Source: Escherichia phage ECO111 5-P. From it: a DNA stretch of 64,000 nt. A program made the translations under genes and the position numbers. The notes below the pieces were generated by a model. That model worked only from the letters and a program-made list of their open reading frames with translations, did not search any database and was not told the origin of the DNA. The DNA lies in sequence record OR844765; one strand, written 5' to 3'. Below are positions 27,944 through 32,050 of the stretch, piece after piece (position 1 is the first letter of the stretch; every line of letters starts with the position of its first letter).

Positions 27944-28579
27944 ATGAAAACTACTCCTATTACTATCGCTATTGACGCAATCATAAAACAAGCTTCTTCT
28001 TTGGCCGCTATGGCCAAAGTAATTAGTCAAAACCCTGCTCGTTATAATGCTATTCTAGAAACTCTTCGACGCCCTGGACTGAGTAATTATGAAAGTCGTG
28101 TAATTATTACAGGTGTTGGTAAGAATGCTAATATCGCAACTAAAGCTTCTGAGACATTTGCTTCACTCGGTATCCCGAGTATGTACTTGAACACTGGGCA
28201 TTATTCTCATGGTGACGCAGGATTTATTGCACCTAATGATGTATTAGTTCACATCAGTCGTTCTGGTAAGACTGAAGAAATGATAGGTGTTGCTAAACAT
28301 CTTCGTATGATTCGTCCTCAGGTTAAACAGATTCTGTTACATTGTAACCCTGACATTCCACAAGAATACGAAGCTCTTTTTGATTATACGTTCTGTACCG
28401 GTATCGCGGTAGAAGTTGACGAGAACTCTTTAGCTCCGACAATGTCCACTACATTGTTGTTAGCGCTTATCGATACGTTTGCTATCAACCTTTCGTCTGA
28501 GCGTGGATTTACCTCTAATGACTTCCTCAAGTTCCATCCAGGCGGTGCACTAGGTGCCATGTTGCGAGGCGAACAATGA
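27944..28579 (+). CDS. SIS-domain sugar-phosphate isomerase, KdsD/GutQ-like (arabinose-5-phosphate isomerase type) without CBS domains
   Basis: ITGVGKNANIATKASETFASLGIPS ... HISRSGKTEE ... LAPTMSTT match the SIS fold and resemble KdsD as I recall it. Confidence 0.75.
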   Translation: MKTTPITIAIDAIIKQASSLAAMAKVISQNPARYNAILETLRRPGLSNYESRVIITGVGKNANIATKASETFASLGIPSMYLNTGHYSHGDAGFIAPNDVLVHISRSGKTEEMIGVAKHLRMIRPQVKQILLHCNPDIPQEYEALFDYTFCTGIAVEVDENSLAPTMSTTLLLALIDTFAINLSSERGFTSNDFLKFHPGGALGAMLRGEQ

Positions 28580-28719
28580 AAGCAATAACAATAGGACTTT
28601 TACTATTGATGCTTGTCATGACTATCTACTGGAGCTTAACGGCTCCAGTAATGATTCCGACTCTCATAATCGGATGGATTATGATTGGACTACAAGCAAA
28701 GTATGAATGCTTTAACTAG
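28576..28719 (+). CDS. possible small hydrophobic membrane protein (47 aa)
   Basis: ATGA overlap with SIS gene stop; two hydrophobic helices; absent from ORF track. Confidence 0.3.
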   Translation: MKAITIGLLLLMLVMTIYWSLTAPVMIPTLIIGWIMIGLQAKYECFN

Positions 28720-28760
28720 AATAGTGTACAATACACCTACTTACCAATGAGGACCACAAC

Positions 28761-30446
28761 ATGAAAAAAGCTGTTATTCTTGGTGCTGGACTGGCAACTC
28801 GTTTGTATCCAATAACGCATCATATTCCTAAGGTGCTTGTTAACTATAAACAAGACACTATTCTGAGCAATTTGTATACAATTTATTCTGACCTTGGCGC
28901 AGATGAAATTATTGTAGTAGTTCATTCAAAATTTGCTGAAACTGTTCGAGCTTATTGTGAGCAAGAAGGGTTCAATGTGACTATTCGTACAGTTGATGAA
29001 GCGTACGGTTCTGCTTATGCTCTTGCTAAATTACACAAAGATTTAGACGGCCATAATGTAATTGTTAACTGGTGTGATATTATTCCCGATTTTGGTTCAT
29101 GGTCTTGGAATGTTAACGCAATCTATGTTAAGGGTGACGAATGTCGATATAATTTCGACGGTGAAAATATCACTAATGTAGGTTCAACAGGTGGTAATGT
29201 TGTAGGAATTTATCAGTTCAAAGACTGGGAATTCTATATGGGTTCTACCGATGAGGAAATTCATGAATACTGCAAAGGACGCGATTTCGTAGAATTCCTT
29301 TACGGCAGCGCATTCAATAAATCAGAGCTTATGAATCTAATTGATTTAGGTGATATGCCTAAACTTGAAAAAGCTCATGAAGTTCGTGAACTTAATCGTA
29401 GTTTTAATGCAGTTGAAATTGGTGAAGAAACTGTAACTAAATTCGCATTAACCGAACAGGGTCGAGCTCTTCAGAAAGATGAGATTTCATGGTATTTGAA
29501 AGTGAAATCAGATTCAGTTCCTCAGTTAGTTTCTGTTAATGAAAATAACTTTGAAATGGAACGTATTAAAGGTAAGCCGGCATTTGAATATATTAAATCC
29601 AAATCAAGTCTTGCTCGTCCACAAATTGTTGATGCAATTTTAGATGCACTGAAATTCAGCACAGACACTTATTTTGTAAGTCCTGAAACTGTTCGCCGTG
29701 ATTTCACTAAAGAATTCTATACGAAAGTTATTGATCGTTGTGAAAGCATTCAACCATTGATTGATTCATTTGGTAAAATCACCCATGTGAACTACACTAA
29801 GATTGGGCGTCTGAAGCCAATGCTGAAACAAGCTTTAGAACACCTTATTCGTTATCATAACCGTTCTCAGGGACAGTACTCTGTTATTCATGGTGACCCG
29901 AACTTCAGTAATACTATGATTACTGATAACGGCGAAGTCAAGTTTATCGACCCTCGTGGATATTTTGGGGAAACCAAGATTTACGGGCCAAAATTGTACG
30001 ATGAAGCTAAAGTGCTTTATGCTGTTTCAGGTTATGATGAATTCAACGCTAATCCGACCTGGGGACAGTTTACTATTGATGAAACAACTTGTAATGTGAC
30101 TATTAACATCAATCCATTAGTTTACAAATATGGAAAGATGAGTTCGTTTAACGAGTATCATCATTTGGCAGTGGCAATTATCTGGATTGCATTAGGTGGT
30201 TATTTCAAGAATAATCCACTTAAAGCGGTAGCCGCATATTATAAAGGTATGGAACTTCTGACTAAGCAATTACGTAACATGGGCCGTGTACTTCAGGACG
30301 GCTCTATTAGTTATGACGTAGCAGAACCTGTAACGGCTACTCTGATTACAAAAAATCCTGGTAAATGGGTACTAACTGATAAAGAAACTGGTGTTTCTTA
30401 TCGTCCAATCGGTGGCGATATCACTCATCAATGGGAACGAATCTAA
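28761..30446 (+). CDS. bifunctional sugar-1-phosphate nucleotidyltransferase / APH-like sugar kinase
   Basis: N-terminal GAGLATRLYP nucleotidyltransferase loop; C-terminal HGDPNFSN catalytic loop and FIDPRG motif of aminoglycoside/choline-kinase-type kinases. Confidence 0.7.
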   Translation: MKKAVILGAGLATRLYPITHHIPKVLVNYKQDTILSNLYTIYSDLGADEIIVVVHSKFAETVRAYCEQEGFNVTIRTVDEAYGSAYALAKLHKDLDGHNVIVNWCDIIPDFGSWSWNVNAIYVKGDECRYNFDGENITNVGSTGGNVVGIYQFKDWEFYMGSTDEEIHEYCKGRDFVEFLYGSAFNKSELMNLIDLGDMPKLEKAHEVRELNRSFNAVEIGEETVTKFALTEQGRALQKDEISWYLKVKSDSVPQLVSVNENNFEMERIKGKPAFEYIKSKSSLARPQIVDAILDALKFSTDTYFVSPETVRRDFTKEFYTKVIDRCESIQPLIDSFGKITHVNYTKIGRLKPMLKQALEHLIRYHNRSQGQYSVIHGDPNFSNTMITDNGEVKFIDPRGYFGETKIYGPKLYDEAKVLYAVSGYDEFNANPTWGQFTIDETTCNVTININPLVYKYGKMSSFNEYHHLAVAIIWIALGGYFKNNPLKAVAAYYKGMELLTKQLRNMGRVLQDGSISYDVAEPVTATLITKNPGKWVLTDKETGVSYRPIGGDITHQWERI

Positions 30447-30832
30447 TGCACCGTGTAGAAAACATGCTTAATCTTTGTTTTGATGTCGATGATTGTATAA
30501 CAGAGTGGAATAACAATCGTGATTACGTGAACTTCAAACCAGACGTCGAAATGGTGTCTGCCATTAATGCTCTGTATGATGCAGGGCATACAATAACGCT
30601 TTACACTGCTCGCGGTATGAAGTCAGTAGGTCCTGGTCGTATAGCAATTGACATTCTCCCAAGTCTGATTCAGAACTTGGCAAACATTGGCTTGAAGTAC
30701 CATAATTTGCTAACACATAAACCAGTATATGATTGGATTATCGACGACAAAGCTATGCGTCCTGACGAATTCAAAGCTCTTATGAATAAAGGCGAATTCG
30801 AAACATTTAAATCGTATAAACCAAATCTATAA
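30446..30832 (+). CDS. HAD-superfamily phosphatase-like protein
   Basis: N-terminal FDVDDCIT (DxDxT motif I) and C-terminal K...IIDD; TAATG overlap with upstream gene. Confidence 0.6.
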   Translation: MHRVENMLNLCFDVDDCITEWNNNRDYVNFKPDVEMVSAINALYDAGHTITLYTARGMKSVGPGRIAIDILPSLIQNLANIGLKYHNLLTHKPVYDWIIDDKAMRPDEFKALMNKGEFETFKSYKPNL

Positions 30833-30889
30833 TAATTTAAGTAAGACCTGCAAAAACCATCGCATCAATTAACGTGAGATGCAAAAAAA

Positions 30890-32050
30890 ATGAATACTTT
30901 TAAAATCGGAACGAATTTTGATTTAGCTCTTCTTGATAAAATCGTAGAGCTCAATAAAACCTATCCTAATAGCTTGATAAACGAAGTATATGGCTCTACA
31001 AGAGAAATGGCTTTTGTAGCAGCCAGACCTGATTTTAGGCTTCCTGACGTTGACAAAAAGATGTTAGAAGACTACGTTAAACGTTGTAACGAATTAGGTA
31101 TTTGCTTTAACTATACACTCAACACGATAAATCCTGGTTCAAAAAGAGAACTAGTTGAGTGGAAGAAGAAAGCTATTCAGGATTATGTTCAGTATCTTTG
31201 GTCAATAGGCGTATGGCGTATTACTATCGCTAACCCTGTTGTTATGGAAATTGTTCGTGAAGTCAATAAAGACATTGAGATTGAAGTTTCAACAATTCTA
31301 CATGTCGATGCTGTAACTCAAATCAAATACTTGCATGACCAATATAATATCAAAAAGGTCTGCTGTGGAATTCATAAGAACCGTTCAGTTTCTTTCCTGA
31401 AGCGTGCAGCAGAGTTTTGTAATAAGAACAATATAATATTTGAAGTTCTTGTAAATGAGTTCTGTTCTAATGCTGGTAAAGGGTATACAACACATTGTAG
31501 CTATCGTGACTCTTGCTATATTTTCCATAGTACTGATGTTACAGCTGATGATGCTAAATCCTTAAACGGATATCCTATGCAGCACTGTATTAAAGCTCGT
31601 GATACAGACCCATTTAACTGGTTGAGAACTCGTTTTGTTCGTCCTCAAGATTTGAAACTTTATAATGATATTGGTATCACTCAATTCAAAGTTTCAGGAC
31701 GTACAGGTAGCACAGACTACATTTTGAAAGTTCTTGAAGCATACGCTTCTGAAAAGTTTGAAGGTAATTTGTTAGAACTGTGGAAGCCTTTAGAGACTAT
31801 TTTCACTCTTGAAAATGAGACTGAGTTTTCACATACAGTAAATATTGAAACCTCTTTGTTAGATGGCTTTTTAGAAAAAAGGTGGTTCAGACATCCAGAT
31901 TTTGATTGTGCTAATGAAATCTGTGGGTCAACGTGTACATATTGTGAAAGGTATTATAAACGTCAATTATCTAAAAACGGGTTAGCAGAAAACTCCATAT
32001 CTATTATTGATATAACTAACTCTGATGACGCTTTGAGGTACCCGGAATGA
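30890..32050 (+). CDS. hypothetical enzyme (386 aa) with Cys-rich motifs, function unknown
   Basis: Internal Cys cluster (CSNAGKGYTTHCSYRDSCY) and C-terminal CANEICGSTCTYC; part of the sugar-nucleotide cluster. Confidence 0.55.
   Translation: MNTFKIGTNFDLALLDKIVELNKTYPNSLINEVYGSTREMAFVAARPDFRLPDVDKKMLEDYVKRCNELGICFNYTLNTINPGSKRELVEWKKKAIQDYVQYLWSIGVWRITIANPVVMEIVREVNKDIEIEVSTILHVDAVTQIKYLHDQYNIKKVCCGIHKNRSVSFLKRAAEFCNKNNIIFEVLVNEFCSNAGKGYTTHCSYRDSCYIFHSTDVTADDAKSLNGYPMQHCIKARDTDPFNWLRTRFVRPQDLKLYNDIGITQFKVSGRTGSTDYILKVLEAYASEKFEGNLLELWKPLETIFTLENETEFSHTVNIETSLLDGFLEKRWFRHPDFDCANEICGSTCTYCERYYKRQLSKNGLAENSISIIDITNSDDALRYPE

What the first reader, a model, noticed from the sequence alone, without database searches (positions are those of the whole stretch)
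27944..32050. Sugar-nucleotide biosynthesis cluster between DNA polymerase and the gene 42 homologue: candidate arabinose-donor pathway for DNA hypermodification
Four consecutive genes directly after gene 43 encode a KdsD/GutQ-like SIS isomerase without CBS domains (27944-28579), a nucleotidyltransferase fused to an APH-like kinase (28761-30446), a HAD phosphatase (30446-30832) and a Cys-rich 386-aa protein (30890-32050). Isomerase plus kinase plus phosphatase plus nucleotidyltransferase is the same logic as the GmhA/HldE/GmhB ADP-heptose route and the AmgK/MurU salvage route. With an arabinose-5-phosphate-type isomerase, the simplest reading is ribulose-5-P to arabinose-5-P, then arabinose-1-P, then NDP-arabinose, made next to the hydroxymethylase gene. 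In T4 this interval holds only imm and small ORFs. If the polymerase is RB69-type, this fits my recollection that RB69 DNA carries arabinosyl-hmC; that recollection is not verified here.
Basis: partly seen in the sequence, partly recalled or inferred. Interest (0 to 1): 0.9.

Follow-up and report, generated by a model that had tools for sequence, protein, structure and literature searches.

The report
Known phage arabinose-DNA cluster, plus unexplained hydroxylase
These genes are the already-published pathway by which RB69-type phages make an activated arabinose sugar to decorate their DNA, but the fourth gene is not a sugar enzyme and looks like an unrecognised oxygen-independent way of making the modified base.

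Summary
The ORFs are real and lie at the stated coordinates in an RB69-like Mosigvirus.

**The sugar pathway is already known.**
- The first three enzymes are a CBS-less arabinose-5-phosphate isomerase, a nucleotidyltransferase-kinase fusion, and a HAD phosphatase.
- They were proposed as the UDP-arabinose module in 2018.
- Lee 2026 reports that He 2026 characterised the phage HY126 counterparts (AfhE/AfhF) biochemically.
- The window's phosphatase is 100% identical to PDB 9iqw.

- The modified base is arabinosyl-5-hydroxycytosine, not arabinosyl-hmC.
- The "gene 42 homologue" is an O2/flavin-dependent dCMP 5-hydroxylase, about 97% identical to PDB 9iqc.
- The Cys-rich 386-aa protein is a peptidase-U32 family Fe-S protein, not a sugar enzyme.
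- A conserved 47-aa membrane peptide gene was missed.

**New lead.**
- In related phages the U32 gene is translationally coupled to a chorismate mutase.
- In other phages it sits beside DAHP synthase or a DAHP synthase-chorismate mutase fusion.
- Among 58 loci anchored on the first DNA glycosyltransferase, every informative locus has the TS-type hydroxylase, U32, or both next to it.
- I therefore infer that U32 is a prephenate-dependent, O2-independent pyrimidine C5 hydroxylase.
- This role is untested, and I found it in none of the papers I could read.

The parts
27944..28579 (+). Single-domain SIS arabinose-5-phosphate isomerase (RB69 gp55 equivalent). Proposed reaction: D-ribulose-5-P to D-arabinose-5-P.
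   Evidence: Pfam SIS 9.6e-10. NCBIfam KpsF/GutQ 8.9e-32, KdsD 3.9e-30 and GutQ 2.6e-22, covering the SIS half only. PDB 3etn 9.6e-25, 5uqi and 2xhz. PHROG 5670 'arabinose 5-phosphate isomerase' 2.6e-116. Activity is assigned by homology in Lee 2026 and has not been assayed for this protein.
28576..28719 (+). 47-aa hydrophobic (two-TM) peptide gene whose start overlaps the SIS stop codon (ATGA). Function unknown.
   Evidence: ORF and sequence. 62% identical over 47/47 residues to the syntenic 47-aa gene of Serratia phage LC53.
28761..29390 (+). N-terminal sugar-1-phosphate nucleotidyltransferase domain of the 561-aa fusion (RB69 ORF53_52c; HY126 AfhE analogue). Proposed reaction: Ara-1-P + UTP to UDP-arabinofuranose. 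The domain end is approximate.
   Evidence: Pfam NTP_transferase 8.5e-10, residues 3-99. NCBIfam sugar-1-P nucleotidyltransferases, including MurU. PDB 1jyk 2.1e-05. AfhE pyrophosphorylase activity is reported for HY126, as cited in Lee 2026.
29391..30446 (+). C-terminal APH/choline-kinase-like kinase domain of the same protein. Proposed reaction: Ara-5-P to Ara-1,5-bisphosphate.
   Evidence: Weak Pfam hits to Fructosamin_kin, EcKL and RIO1. PHROG 21938 matches residues 211-517. HGDPNFSN motif at residue 377. Kinase activity of AfhE as cited in Lee 2026.
30446..30832 (+). HAD-family phosphatase (RB69 gp51; HY126 AfhF). Proposed reaction: Ara-1,5-P2 to Ara-1-P.
   Evidence: 128/128 identical to PDB 9iqw; 1xpj 4.9e-10. 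NCBIfam EcbF-BcbF capsule phosphatase 4.3e-13. AfhF is described as a Mg-dependent phosphatase in Lee 2026.
30890..32050 (+). Peptidase-U32 family Fe-S-type protein (RB69 gp50). Inferred to be a prephenate-dependent, O2-independent pyrimidine C5 hydroxylase, not a sugar enzyme.
   Evidence: Pfam Peptidase_U32 7.3e-11. AF2 model pLDDT 91; best PDB fold is the U32 protein 5d88. Ten invariant Cys in the subfamily. E185, C203 and C209 align with the essential TrhP/RlhA residues. Adjacent to chorismate mutase or DAHP synthase in relatives. Complementary with the TS-type hydroxylase next to the GT.
32047..32286 (+). 79-aa ORF of unknown function (RB69 gp49 equivalent), start overlapping the U32 stop. 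It is NOT a chorismate mutase.
   Evidence: No Pfam or NCBIfam hit. hhalign against the phage chorismate mutases gives probability 0.2%. All 32 hits share >=73% identity (79-aa forms 81-97%; named ones are Escherichia phages); some copies are truncated to 47-58 aa. It coexists with a separate CM gene in L019, L025, L028 and L032.
32329..33045 (+). Thymidylate-synthase homologue acting as 5-hydroxy-dCMP synthase (RB69 gp48).
   Evidence: 1.1e-160 and about 97% identity to PDB 9iqc/9ir2. Catalytic Cys163, plus N186 at the ThyA D169 position. RB69 gp48 has been shown to make 5hodCMP using O2 and flavin.
33045..33944 (+). First DNA arabinosyltransferase (RB69 gp46:47), acting on 5-hydroxycytosine in DNA.
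   Evidence: PHROG 3891. Assigned as arabinosyltransferase 1 by structure in Lee 2026. The family alignment has 23 invariant columns.
33945..34493 (+). Thymidylate-kinase-like nucleotide kinase (RB69 gp45).
   Evidence: PHROG 761 'thymidylate kinase' 5.7e-45. Lee 2026 Table 1.
55353..56453 (+). Second arabinosyltransferase (RB69 ORF003c/gp3 homologue), lying between topoisomerase gp39 and rIIA, outside the reported interval.
   Evidence: Annotated 'putative hmC-arabinosyltransferase' in Escherichia phages AlbertHofmann and ChristianSchoenbein. Its position matches the description in PMC13390438. Flanking genes identified.

Best explanation
The interval is part of the arabinosyl-5-hydroxycytosine DNA hypermodification cassette of an RB69-like Mosigvirus.

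**Sugar donor pathway (known from the literature).** Three enzymes make the donor.
1. The CBS-less SIS isomerase converts ribulose-5-P to D-arabinose-5-P.
2. The C-terminal kinase domain of the 561-aa fusion phosphorylates C1, giving arabinose-1,5-bisphosphate.
3. The HAD phosphatase removes the 5-phosphate.
4. The N-terminal nucleotidyltransferase domain makes UDP-arabinofuranose.

**Downstream genes (known from the literature).**
- A TS-like, O2/flavin-dependent enzyme makes 5-hydroxy-dCMP.
- Kinases feed it to the polymerase.
- Two glycosyltransferases then arabinosylate 5hoC in DNA.

**The fourth gene (my inference, not shown experimentally).** It is not a sugar enzyme. It is a U32-family Fe-S protein. 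I infer that it is a prephenate-dependent, O2-independent C5 hydroxylase of cytosine, probably acting at the nucleotide level. This would give the phage a second route to 5hoC when O2 is absent. It parallels the bacterial pairs TrhO/TrhP and UbiI,H,F/UbiU,V. In this phage the prephenate would have to come from host PheA/TyrA, because the window has no chorismate mutase.
For: **Sugar pathway.**
- Domain assignments.
- The HAD protein is 100% identical to PDB 9iqw.
- The module was proposed in 2018.
- Step order and AfhE/AfhF activities are summarised.
- The TS homologue is about 97% identical to PDB 9iqc and has the D169N signature.

**U32 inference.**
- It is a U32 family member. Of the four E. 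coli paralogues, RlhA (the rRNA 5-hydroxycytidine synthase) matches best (E 2e-05 over 195 columns).
- The TrhP/RlhA essential residues are conserved.
- U32 is followed, with overlapping stop and start codons, by a bona fide AroQ chorismate mutase in Serratia, Enterobacter, Klebsiella and Shewanella phages. This holds in 13 of 15 T4-like loci.
- In non-T4-like viral contigs it sits beside type I-beta DAHP synthase or a DAHPS-CM fusion.
- Among 58 loci anchored on the first glycosyltransferase: 35 have the TS-type hydroxylase only, 15 have both, 7 have U32 only, and none of the informative loci has neither. In the U32-only loci, U32 usually abuts the GT.
- U32 also occurs without SIS or the NT-kinase, next to GTs with other sugar genes or next to dCMP deaminase.
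- The phage carries nrdD/nrdG for anaerobic dNTP supply, whereas the TS-type hydroxylase needs O2.
- Prephenate is the O donor, or is required, for the U32 enzymes UbiU/V, RlhA and TrhP.
Against: **Sugar pathway.**
- No enzyme from this exact phage has been assayed.
- The nucleotide carrier (UDP) is inferred from HY126 and from structural matches.
- Dhakavirus Bp7 lacks the SIS gene, so the SIS gene is dispensable where the host supplies Ara5P.

**U32 inference.**
- No biochemical data exist for any phage U32.
- No U32 enzyme has yet been reconstituted in vitro.
- Only two of the four canonical UbiU/V cluster cysteines align cleanly.
- The window's own phage lacks a chorismate mutase.
- U32 is absent from E. 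coli Dhakaviruses as well as from Acinetobacter phages, so host aerobiosis does not fully predict its presence.
- In the U32-only contigs I could read only +/-10 kb, so a TS-type hydroxylase could lie elsewhere on them.
- Two key papers (He 2026 Nat Chem Biol; Mahler 2025 Cell Host Microbe) could not be read.
Confidence: 0.8

Rival explanations
1. One reading: all four genes form one sugar-nucleotide pathway. The Cys-rich protein is an extra sugar-modifying step, and the pathway supplies arabinose for arabinosyl-hydroxymethylcytosine made by a gene-42-type hydroxymethylase.
For: The gene order and the isomerase, kinase, phosphatase and nucleotidyltransferase assignments hold. RB69 was originally reported as ara-hmC. 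U32 often co-occurs with the SIS and NT-kinase genes in other phages.
Against: The base is 5hoC, not hmC. The TS homologue is a hydroxylase. U32 occurs without the SIS or NT-kinase genes, and those genes occur without U32. U32 associates with chorismate mutase and DAHP synthase rather than with sugar enzymes.
Confidence: 0.07
2. U32 is a redox partner of the TS-like hydroxylase or of the sugar pathway. This is the 'sugar or heterocycle reductase' label of Lee 2026. One version is an Fe-S flavin reductase that regenerates reduced FMN for the 5hodCMP synthase.
For: Lee 2026 Table 1 gives that label. U32 is Cys-rich and probably an Fe-S protein. It lies one small gene away from the flavoenzyme gene.
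Against: Seven GT-anchored loci, and about 36 U32-anchored loci, have U32 but no TS-type hydroxylase within 10 kb. This reading does not explain the chorismate mutase and DAHP synthase linkage. No reductase activity is described for U32 proteins in the papers I read.
Confidence: 0.12
3. U32 (with chorismate mutase where present) hydroxylates host RNA, mimicking RlhA or TrhP, to tune translation during infection. It has nothing to do with DNA modification.
For: The only characterised nucleic-acid U32 enzymes act on rRNA and tRNA. RlhA is the closest E. coli paralogue.
Against: U32 is consistently placed inside DNA-modification and nucleotide-metabolism modules. It abuts the 5hoC-type glycosyltransferase exactly where the TS-type hydroxylase is missing. 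The phage protein lacks RlhA's long C-terminal extension.
Confidence: 0.08
4. U32 is what its database name says: a collagenase-like peptidase, for example one that processes phage or host proteins.
For: Database annotations read 'peptidase' or 'collagenase-like protease'.
Against: Kimura 2017 notes that the catalytic mechanism of the reported U32 collagenolytic activity is unknown. Characterised members are linked to hydroxylation. The nucleotide-metabolism context and the ten invariant Cys argue for a redox enzyme.
Confidence: 0.03

Closest known systems
RB69 gp45-gp55 / phage HY126 Afh arabinosyl-5-hydroxycytosine cluster (Thomas 2018; Mahler 2025; He 2026; Lee 2026)
   Same: Same genes in the same order. 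The HAD protein is identical to PDB 9iqw. The TS homologue is about 97% identical to PDB 9iqc. The region is 98.5% identical to other Mosigviruses.
   Different: Nothing essential differs; this is the same system in a sister phage. The U32 gene (gp50) and the 79-aa and 47-aa genes have no assigned role in the papers I could read.
ADP-heptose route: GmhA / HldE / GmhB
   Same: Same logic: a SIS isomerase, an anomeric kinase fused to a nucleotidyltransferase, and a HAD phosphatase acting on a bisphosphate intermediate.
   Different: The sugar is a pentose rather than a heptose. The kinase has an APH/choline-kinase fold rather than HldE's kinase (per my recollection, ribokinase-type). In the phage fusion the nucleotidyltransferase domain is N-terminal. 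The isomerase is of the KdsD/GutQ type.
AmgK / MurU MurNAc salvage
   Same: An APH-like anomeric sugar kinase plus a minimal sugar-1-P uridylyltransferase. NCBIfam MurU and Foldseek 4y7t similarity for the N-terminal domain.
   Different: The phage enzyme is a fusion protein. It phosphorylates an already 5-phosphorylated pentose, so it needs a phosphatase step.
U32 prephenate-dependent hydroxylases: RlhA (rRNA ho5C2501), TrhP (tRNA ho5U34), UbiU/UbiV
   Same: Peptidase_U32 domain and TIM-barrel fold. Conserved Glu and CxxxxxC(Y) motif. Multiple conserved Cys. Genomic linkage to prephenate supply in relatives. The product expected here is the same base modification that RlhA makes, 5-hydroxycytosine.
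   Different: It forms a distinct subfamily: about 20% identity to the E. coli paralogues, no sequence-level PDB hit, and an extra C-terminal CX4CX3CX2C cluster. The substrate would be a deoxynucleotide or DNA. Activity is untested.
Dual O2-dependent / O2-independent hydroxylation pairs (TrhO/TrhP; UbiI,H,F/UbiU,V)
   Same: The same product could be reached by an O2-using enzyme and a U32 enzyme encoded in the same genome.
   Different: Here the O2-dependent partner is a thymidylate-synthase-fold flavoenzyme, and the pair would be viral and serve DNA hypermodification. The duality is inferred, not shown.
T4 gene 42 dCMP hydroxymethylase with alpha/beta-glucosyltransferases
   Same: A pre-replicative C5 modification of dCMP by a TS-fold enzyme, followed by post-replicative glycosylation. 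The genomic neighbourhood between gene 43 and uvsX is the same.
   Different: Hydroxyl instead of hydroxymethyl. Flavin/O2 instead of folate. Arabinofuranose instead of glucose. The phage must make its own sugar donor.

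Membership tests
Phage arabinosyl-5-hydroxycytosine (RB69 gp45-55 / HY126 Afh) cassette | TS-fold 5-hydroxy-dCMP synthase with the D169N / N177D-type signature | tested here: met
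   About 97% identical to PDB 9iqc. N186 aligns with ThyA D169, and the catalytic Cys163 is present. The signature is described.
Phage arabinosyl-5-hydroxycytosine (RB69 gp45-55 / HY126 Afh) cassette | Bifunctional nucleotidyltransferase-kinase (AfhE-type) and HAD phosphatase (AfhF-type) | tested here: met
   The 561-aa fusion has NTP_transferase and kinase motifs. It has the same length and architecture as RB69 ORF53_52c. The HAD protein is 128/128 identical to PDB 9iqw.
Phage arabinosyl-5-hydroxycytosine (RB69 gp45-55 / HY126 Afh) cassette | DNA arabinosyltransferases (a gp46:47-type in the cluster and a gp3-type near rIIA) | tested here: met
   The 299-aa GT lies at 33045-33944. The 366-aa homologue lies at 55353-56453 and is annotated as an arabinosyltransferase in Escherichia phages AlbertHofmann and ChristianSchoenbein.
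Phage arabinosyl-5-hydroxycytosine (RB69 gp45-55 / HY126 Afh) cassette | Virion DNA actually carries mono- or di-arabosyl-5hoC | not testable with these tools
   Shown for RB69 and Mosigvirus NP by LC-MS/NMR, but not for this exact genome.
KdsD/GutQ/KpsF arabinose-5-phosphate isomerases | SIS domain most similar to API family members | tested here: met
   KpsF/GutQ 8.9e-32; KdsD 3.9e-30; PDB 3etn, 5uqi and 2xhz.
KdsD/GutQ/KpsF arabinose-5-phosphate isomerases | C-terminal CBS domain pair (canonical KdsD/GutQ architecture) | tested here: not met
   The matches cover profile positions 2-153 of 268 only, and scores fall below the full-length cut-offs. The best PDB match, 3etn (220 aa), is of similar single-domain length.
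Peptidase U32 prephenate-dependent hydroxylases (RlhA/TrhP/UbiU/UbiV) | Peptidase_U32 domain and fold | tested here: met
   Pfam 7.3e-11, above the gathering score. AF2 model pLDDT 91; best PDB fold is 5d88.
Peptidase U32 prephenate-dependent hydroxylases (RlhA/TrhP/UbiU/UbiV) | Conserved Glu plus two Cys of the U32 motif (TrhP E162, C170, C177), and further Cys for a 4Fe-4S cluster | tested here: inconclusive
   E185, C203 and C209 align with them. C233 lies near UbiU C232. The fourth ligand is not alignable. Ten Cys are invariant in the subfamily. The metal content is unknown.
Peptidase U32 prephenate-dependent hydroxylases (RlhA/TrhP/UbiU/UbiV) | Dependence on prephenate | tested here: inconclusive
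   The only support is indirect and genomic. Chorismate mutase is coupled to U32 in 13 of 15 T4-like loci, and DAHP synthase or a DAHPS-CM fusion sits beside U32 elsewhere. The window itself has no chorismate mutase.
Peptidase U32 prephenate-dependent hydroxylases (RlhA/TrhP/UbiU/UbiV) | O2-independent hydroxylase activity | not testable with these tools
   Needs anaerobic genetics or biochemistry.
AroQ (type II) chorismate mutase, as a candidate identity for the 79-aa ORF 32047-32286 | CM_2 domain with catalytic Arg/Arg/Lys/Glu/Gln | tested here: not met
   No Pfam or NCBIfam hit even at E 10. hhalign probability 0.2% against the phage CMs. A separate CM gene coexists with its homologue in four phages.

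The most novel reading that the evidence does not exclude
The U32-family gene (30890-32050) encodes an O2-independent, prephenate-dependent pyrimidine C5 hydroxylase for DNA hypermodification.

- In RB69-like phages it would be the anaerobic backup to the O2/flavin-dependent TS-type 5-hydroxy-dCMP synthase.
- In many uncultivated phages that lack a TS-type enzyme near the glycosyltransferase, it would be the only source of the hydroxyl handle.
- Phage-encoded chorismate mutase or DAHP synthase would boost the oxygen donor.
- This would be the first U32 hydroxylase acting on DNA precursors, and the first viral use of prephenate as an O donor.

No paper I could read states this. He 2026 and Mahler 2025 could not be checked.
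Probability: 0.5. Interest if true: 0.8.

Novelty: already known. Interest (0 to 1): 0.35.

Why it matters
**The cluster as flagged.** The arabinose-donor cluster explains how RB69-type phages build a sugar donor that E. coli does not make. The resulting DNA decoration blocks restriction enzymes; the literature also treats such modifications as protection against CRISPR. That work is published, so this finding adds only another member.

**The overlooked gene.** What remains open is the U32 gene.
- The published hydroxylase needs O2, yet these are enteric phages that carry an anaerobic ribonucleotide reductase.
- Related T4-like phages encode a dCTP pyrophosphatase. If this phage removes dCTP in the same way (not checked here), it could not replicate anaerobically without an O2-independent route to 5hoC.
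- If U32 supplies that route, several things follow:
  - It explains a strongly conserved orphan gene (at least 80% identity across the T4-like phage records from diverse hosts that carry it).
  - It extends prephenate-dependent hydroxylation from RNA and quinones to DNA precursors.
  - It gives a soluble, small-substrate U32 enzyme for the in vitro reconstitution the field still lacks.
  - It flags dozens of uncultivated phages as likely carriers of glycosylated hydroxypyrimidines.

Tried and rejected
1. **Is the 79-aa ORF a degenerate chorismate mutase?** Rejected. It has no family hit, and the profile-profile probability is 0.2%. It also coexists with a true CM gene in four phages.
2. **Is there a chorismate mutase elsewhere in the window?** None was found. 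The best hit has E 0.0094 at 46118-46891 and is not credible.
3. **Promoter and terminator scan of 27700-34700.** Counts equal the shuffled expectation, so the scan is uninformative.
4. **Sequence searches of U32 against the PDB.** Neither the single sequence nor the profile gave a real hit. Only a fold search found 5d88.
5. **Foldseek against AFDB50.** The library was unavailable.
6. **Does strict host aerobiosis predict absence of U32?** Only partly. Acinetobacter phages lack it, but so do E. coli Dhakaviruses.
7. **Is the DAHP-synthase-like neighbour a KDO8P synthase that would consume Ara5P?** Rejected. DAHPS models score 237 bits against 63 bits for KDO8PS, and several copies carry a fused CM domain.
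8. **Is the 'TS' beside U32 in L033/L120 a 5hodCMP synthase?** Rejected. It is a canonical ThyA (Pfam 2.8e-72) that keeps D169 and N177.
9. **Reading He 2026 and Mahler 2025.** Neither paper is held.
10. **Phage Tn-seq preprint.** It contains no essentiality data for this cluster.

Full report
**What is there.**
- The window is a T4-like phage of the RB69 group (Mosigvirus). The 4.4-kb interval is 98.5% identical to Escherichia phage PhAPEC2, and 157 phage records cover at least 80% of it.
- The 211-aa protein is a single-domain SIS protein. Its best matches are KpsF/GutQ (8.9e-32), KdsD (3.9e-30) and the phosphosugar/arabinose-5-phosphate isomerase structures 3etn, 5uqi and 2xhz. The matches stop where the CBS domains of KdsD would begin.
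- The 561-aa protein has an N-terminal sugar-1-phosphate nucleotidyltransferase domain (Pfam 8.5e-10; PDB 1jyk). It also has a C-terminal kinase-fold domain with an HGDPNFSN motif.
- The 128-aa protein is a HAD phosphatase, 128/128 identical to PDB 9iqw.
- The 386-aa protein has 13 cysteines and is a Peptidase_U32 family member (Pfam 7.3e-11).
One is a 47-aa membrane peptide whose start overlaps the SIS stop; it is conserved at 62% identity in Serratia phage LC53. The other is a 79-aa ORF between U32 and the thymidylate-synthase homologue.

**The sugar pathway is already known.**
- Thomas et al. [quoted passage not shown] They merged ORF053c and ORF052c into the 561-aa protein. They linked it and ORF055c to arabinose-5-phosphate isomerases as candidates for UDP-arabinose synthesis.
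- Lee et al. 2026 (PMC13326640) give the pathway. gp55 converts Ru5P to Ara5P. The kinase domain of gp52:53 makes the 1,5-bisphosphate. gp51 removes the 5-phosphate. The N-terminal domain makes UDP-arabinofuranose.
- Lee et al. cite the He et al. 2026 biochemistry on the HY126 enzymes AfhE and AfhF.
- The window's HAD protein is identical to a deposited structure. Its TS homologue is about 97% identical to PDB 9iqc/9ir2. This is therefore the same system in a sister phage.

**Corrections to the interpretation.**
- RB69-type DNA does not carry arabinosyl-hmC. The arabinose is attached through an oxygen directly on C5 of 5-hydroxycytosine, as mono- and di-arabinosides.
- The "gene 42 homologue" is a 5-hydroxy-dCMP synthase. 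It binds a flavin and takes its oxygen from O2.
- In the window protein, the catalytic Cys is present, and Asn186 aligns with ThyA Asp169. That is the published signature of the hydroxylating branch.
- The cassette continues beyond the reported end. It includes the first arabinosyltransferase (33045-33944) and a thymidylate-kinase-like kinase (33945-34493).
- A second arabinosyltransferase lies at 55353-56453, between the topoisomerase gene and rIIA.

**The fourth gene is not a sugar enzyme.**
- Lee 2026 lists gp50 only as "sugar or heterocycle reductase", with 5d88 as its structural match. The paper never mentions U32, chorismate or prephenate. [quoted passage not shown]
- My AlphaFold model (pLDDT 91, pTM 0.90) also finds 5d88, a U32 protein, as the best solved fold.
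- The characterised U32 proteins are RlhA (23S rRNA 5-hydroxycytidine), TrhP (tRNA 5-hydroxyuridine) and UbiU/UbiV (anaerobic ubiquinone hydroxylation).
- Genetics ties these proteins to Fe-S clusters and to a requirement for prephenate. For ubiquinone, prephenate has been shown to be the oxygen donor.
- Of the four E. coli paralogues, RlhA matches the phage family best (E 2e-05 over 195 columns).
- The Glu and the two Cys shown to be essential in TrhP align with E185, C203 and C209. Ten Cys are invariant across 31 family members.

**Genomic context ties U32 to prephenate.**
- The U32 gene is followed, with overlapping stop and start codons, by a gene that passes the Pfam gathering score for AroQ chorismate mutase. 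This holds in Serratia phage LC53, Enterobacter phage Entb_45, a Klebsiella phage and Shewanella phage Thanatos-2.
- The catalytic Arg, Arg, Lys, Glu, Ser and Gln are invariant in these mutases.
- In Thanatos-2 the pair has moved as a unit.
- Of 15 T4-like loci, 13 have the mutase.
- In non-T4-like viral contigs, the gene beside U32 is often a type I-beta DAHP synthase (2.6e-70, against 2.9e-17 for KDO8P synthase). In four contigs it is a DAHP synthase-chorismate mutase fusion.
- The first and last steps of the route to prephenate are thus both linked to this U32 subfamily, through two different gene arrangements.

**Genomic context ties U32 to the base, not the sugar.**
- U32 homologues at 40-55% identity all lie on phage contigs, inside replication and nucleotide-metabolism modules. 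Their neighbours include thymidylate-kinase-like kinases, dCMP/dCTP deaminases, UDG and PolIII-alpha.
- Some sit in a GT-SIS-NT-kinase-U32 arrangement. Others abut a homologue of the first glycosyltransferase, with other sugar genes nearby (a TAGT-like GT, UDP-galactopyranose mutase) and no SIS or NT-kinase.
- Only one of 37 such loci has a TS homologue within 10 kb, and that one is a canonical ThyA.
- As an independent test, I anchored on the glycosyltransferase family (23 invariant columns) and retrieved 58 viral loci. Results:

| Neighbour of the glycosyltransferase | Loci |
|---|---|
| TS-type hydroxylase only (directly upstream) | 35 |
| Both TS-type hydroxylase and U32 | 15 |
| U32 only (directly downstream in 5 of 7) | 7 |
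| Neither | 1 (a 4.4-kb fragment that begins inside the GT gene, so uninformative) |

- This complementary pattern is what is expected if U32 is an alternative supplier of the hydroxyl acceptor.
- The loci are phylogenetically related and cover only +/-10 kb. This is strong circumstantial evidence, not proof.

**Why a second hydroxylase would make sense here.**
- The published hydroxylase needs O2.
- The window encodes the anaerobic ribonucleotide reductase NrdD and its activase NrdG.
- Related T4-like phages encode a dCTP pyrophosphatase. I did not check this window for one.
- If dCTP is removed in the same way here, the phage would need an O2-independent route to 5hoC in the gut.
- The parallel with TrhO/TrhP and UbiI,H,F/UbiU,V is direct.
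- U32 is very strongly conserved. All 221 phage records share at least 80% protein identity with the window copy, and 133 share at least 99%. In the same phages, the NT-kinase falls to about 42%.

**Caveats on the U32 inference.**
- The window's own phage has no chorismate mutase. The 79-aa ORF at the syntenic position is a different gene. Prephenate would therefore have to come from host PheA/TyrA.
- U32 is absent from Acinetobacter phages, which fits the idea. It is also absent from E. coli Dhakaviruses, which does not.
- No U32 enzyme has been reconstituted in vitro.
- I could not read He 2026 or Mahler 2025. Three literature searches found no paper linking U32 to phage DNA modification.

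**Verdict.**
It is wrong about the base, about the neighbouring enzyme, and about the fourth gene.
- As a finding it is already known, so it scores low on novelty.
- The U32 gene, and in relatives its chorismate mutase partner, is an unexplained and directly testable part of a well-studied cassette. I record it as the novel case.

Noticed in passing
window 28576-28719 (+): A 47-aa, very hydrophobic (two-TM) peptide gene with an ATGA overlap onto the SIS stop codon. It is 62% identical to the syntenic 47-aa gene of Serratia phage LC53. Its function is unknown, and it sits inside an otherwise cytoplasmic enzyme cluster.
   Followed up: partly
window 32047-32286 (+): The 79-aa ORF evolves much faster than its neighbours: 81-97% identity, against 99-100% for U32. 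It is truncated to 47-58 aa in several relatives. All 32 hits share >=73% identity (named ones are Escherichia phages), though weaker homologues (1e-09 to 1e-22) precede the chorismate mutase in four other T4-like loci.
   Followed up: yes
window 55353-56453 (+): The second arabinosyltransferase (RB69 gp3 homologue) is only 93-94% identical in nucleotides to most Mosigviruses, whereas the biosynthetic cluster is about 98% identical. This could reflect diversifying pressure on the enzyme that sets the outer sugar.
   Followed up: no
window 11266-13083 and 13080-13550 (+): Anaerobic ribonucleotide reductase NrdD (Pfam 1.8e-171) and its radical-SAM activase NrdG. The phage is equipped for anaerobic dNTP synthesis, while its known base hydroxylase needs O2.
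   Followed up: partly
L013:9145-9891, L031:9384-10127, L042:8399-9430, L045:7290-8354, L046:8323-9384, L056:11076-12194: Phage-encoded type I-beta DAHP synthases, four of them fused to a C-terminal chorismate mutase, lie next to U32 on uncultivated viral contigs. I saw no mention of shikimate-pathway genes in phages in the papers I read.
   Followed up: partly
L002:8001-14449 (also L003): On an 86-kb contig, a U32 homologue is followed by an NT5C nucleotidase, an NMN-transporter-like protein, a deoxynucleoside kinase, a radical-SAM/SPASM protein, a second divergent U32-like protein and a nucleoside deoxyribosyltransferase-like protein. A radical-SAM/SPASM gene also lies near U32 in L001. The system is unexplained.
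   Followed up: no
L015:6971-14179 and L039:8986-16281: A cluster of GT299-like GT, U32, TAGT-like GT, dCTP deaminase/dUTPase, a second TAGT-like GT and UDP-galactopyranose mutase, with no TS homologue. This suggests a galactofuranosylated hydroxypyrimidine made through U32.
   Followed up: no
L011 (Escherichia phage Bp7) 5971-10151 and L012 (Acinetobacter phage DLP2) 5304-12524: The minimal cassette is NT-kinase, HAD, kinase, TS-type hydroxylase and GT. Bp7 lacks both the SIS and U32 genes and keeps imm after the polymerase gene. DLP2 has the SIS gene but no U32.
   Followed up: yes
phage records: U32 is at least 80% identical across all 221 phage records that carry it (Escherichia, Klebsiella, Proteus, Yersinia, Serratia, Edwardsiella, Shewanella). 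The adjacent NT-kinase drops to 42-50% in the same phages. This reflects either very strong constraint or recent lateral spread of the U32(+CM) unit.
   Followed up: no
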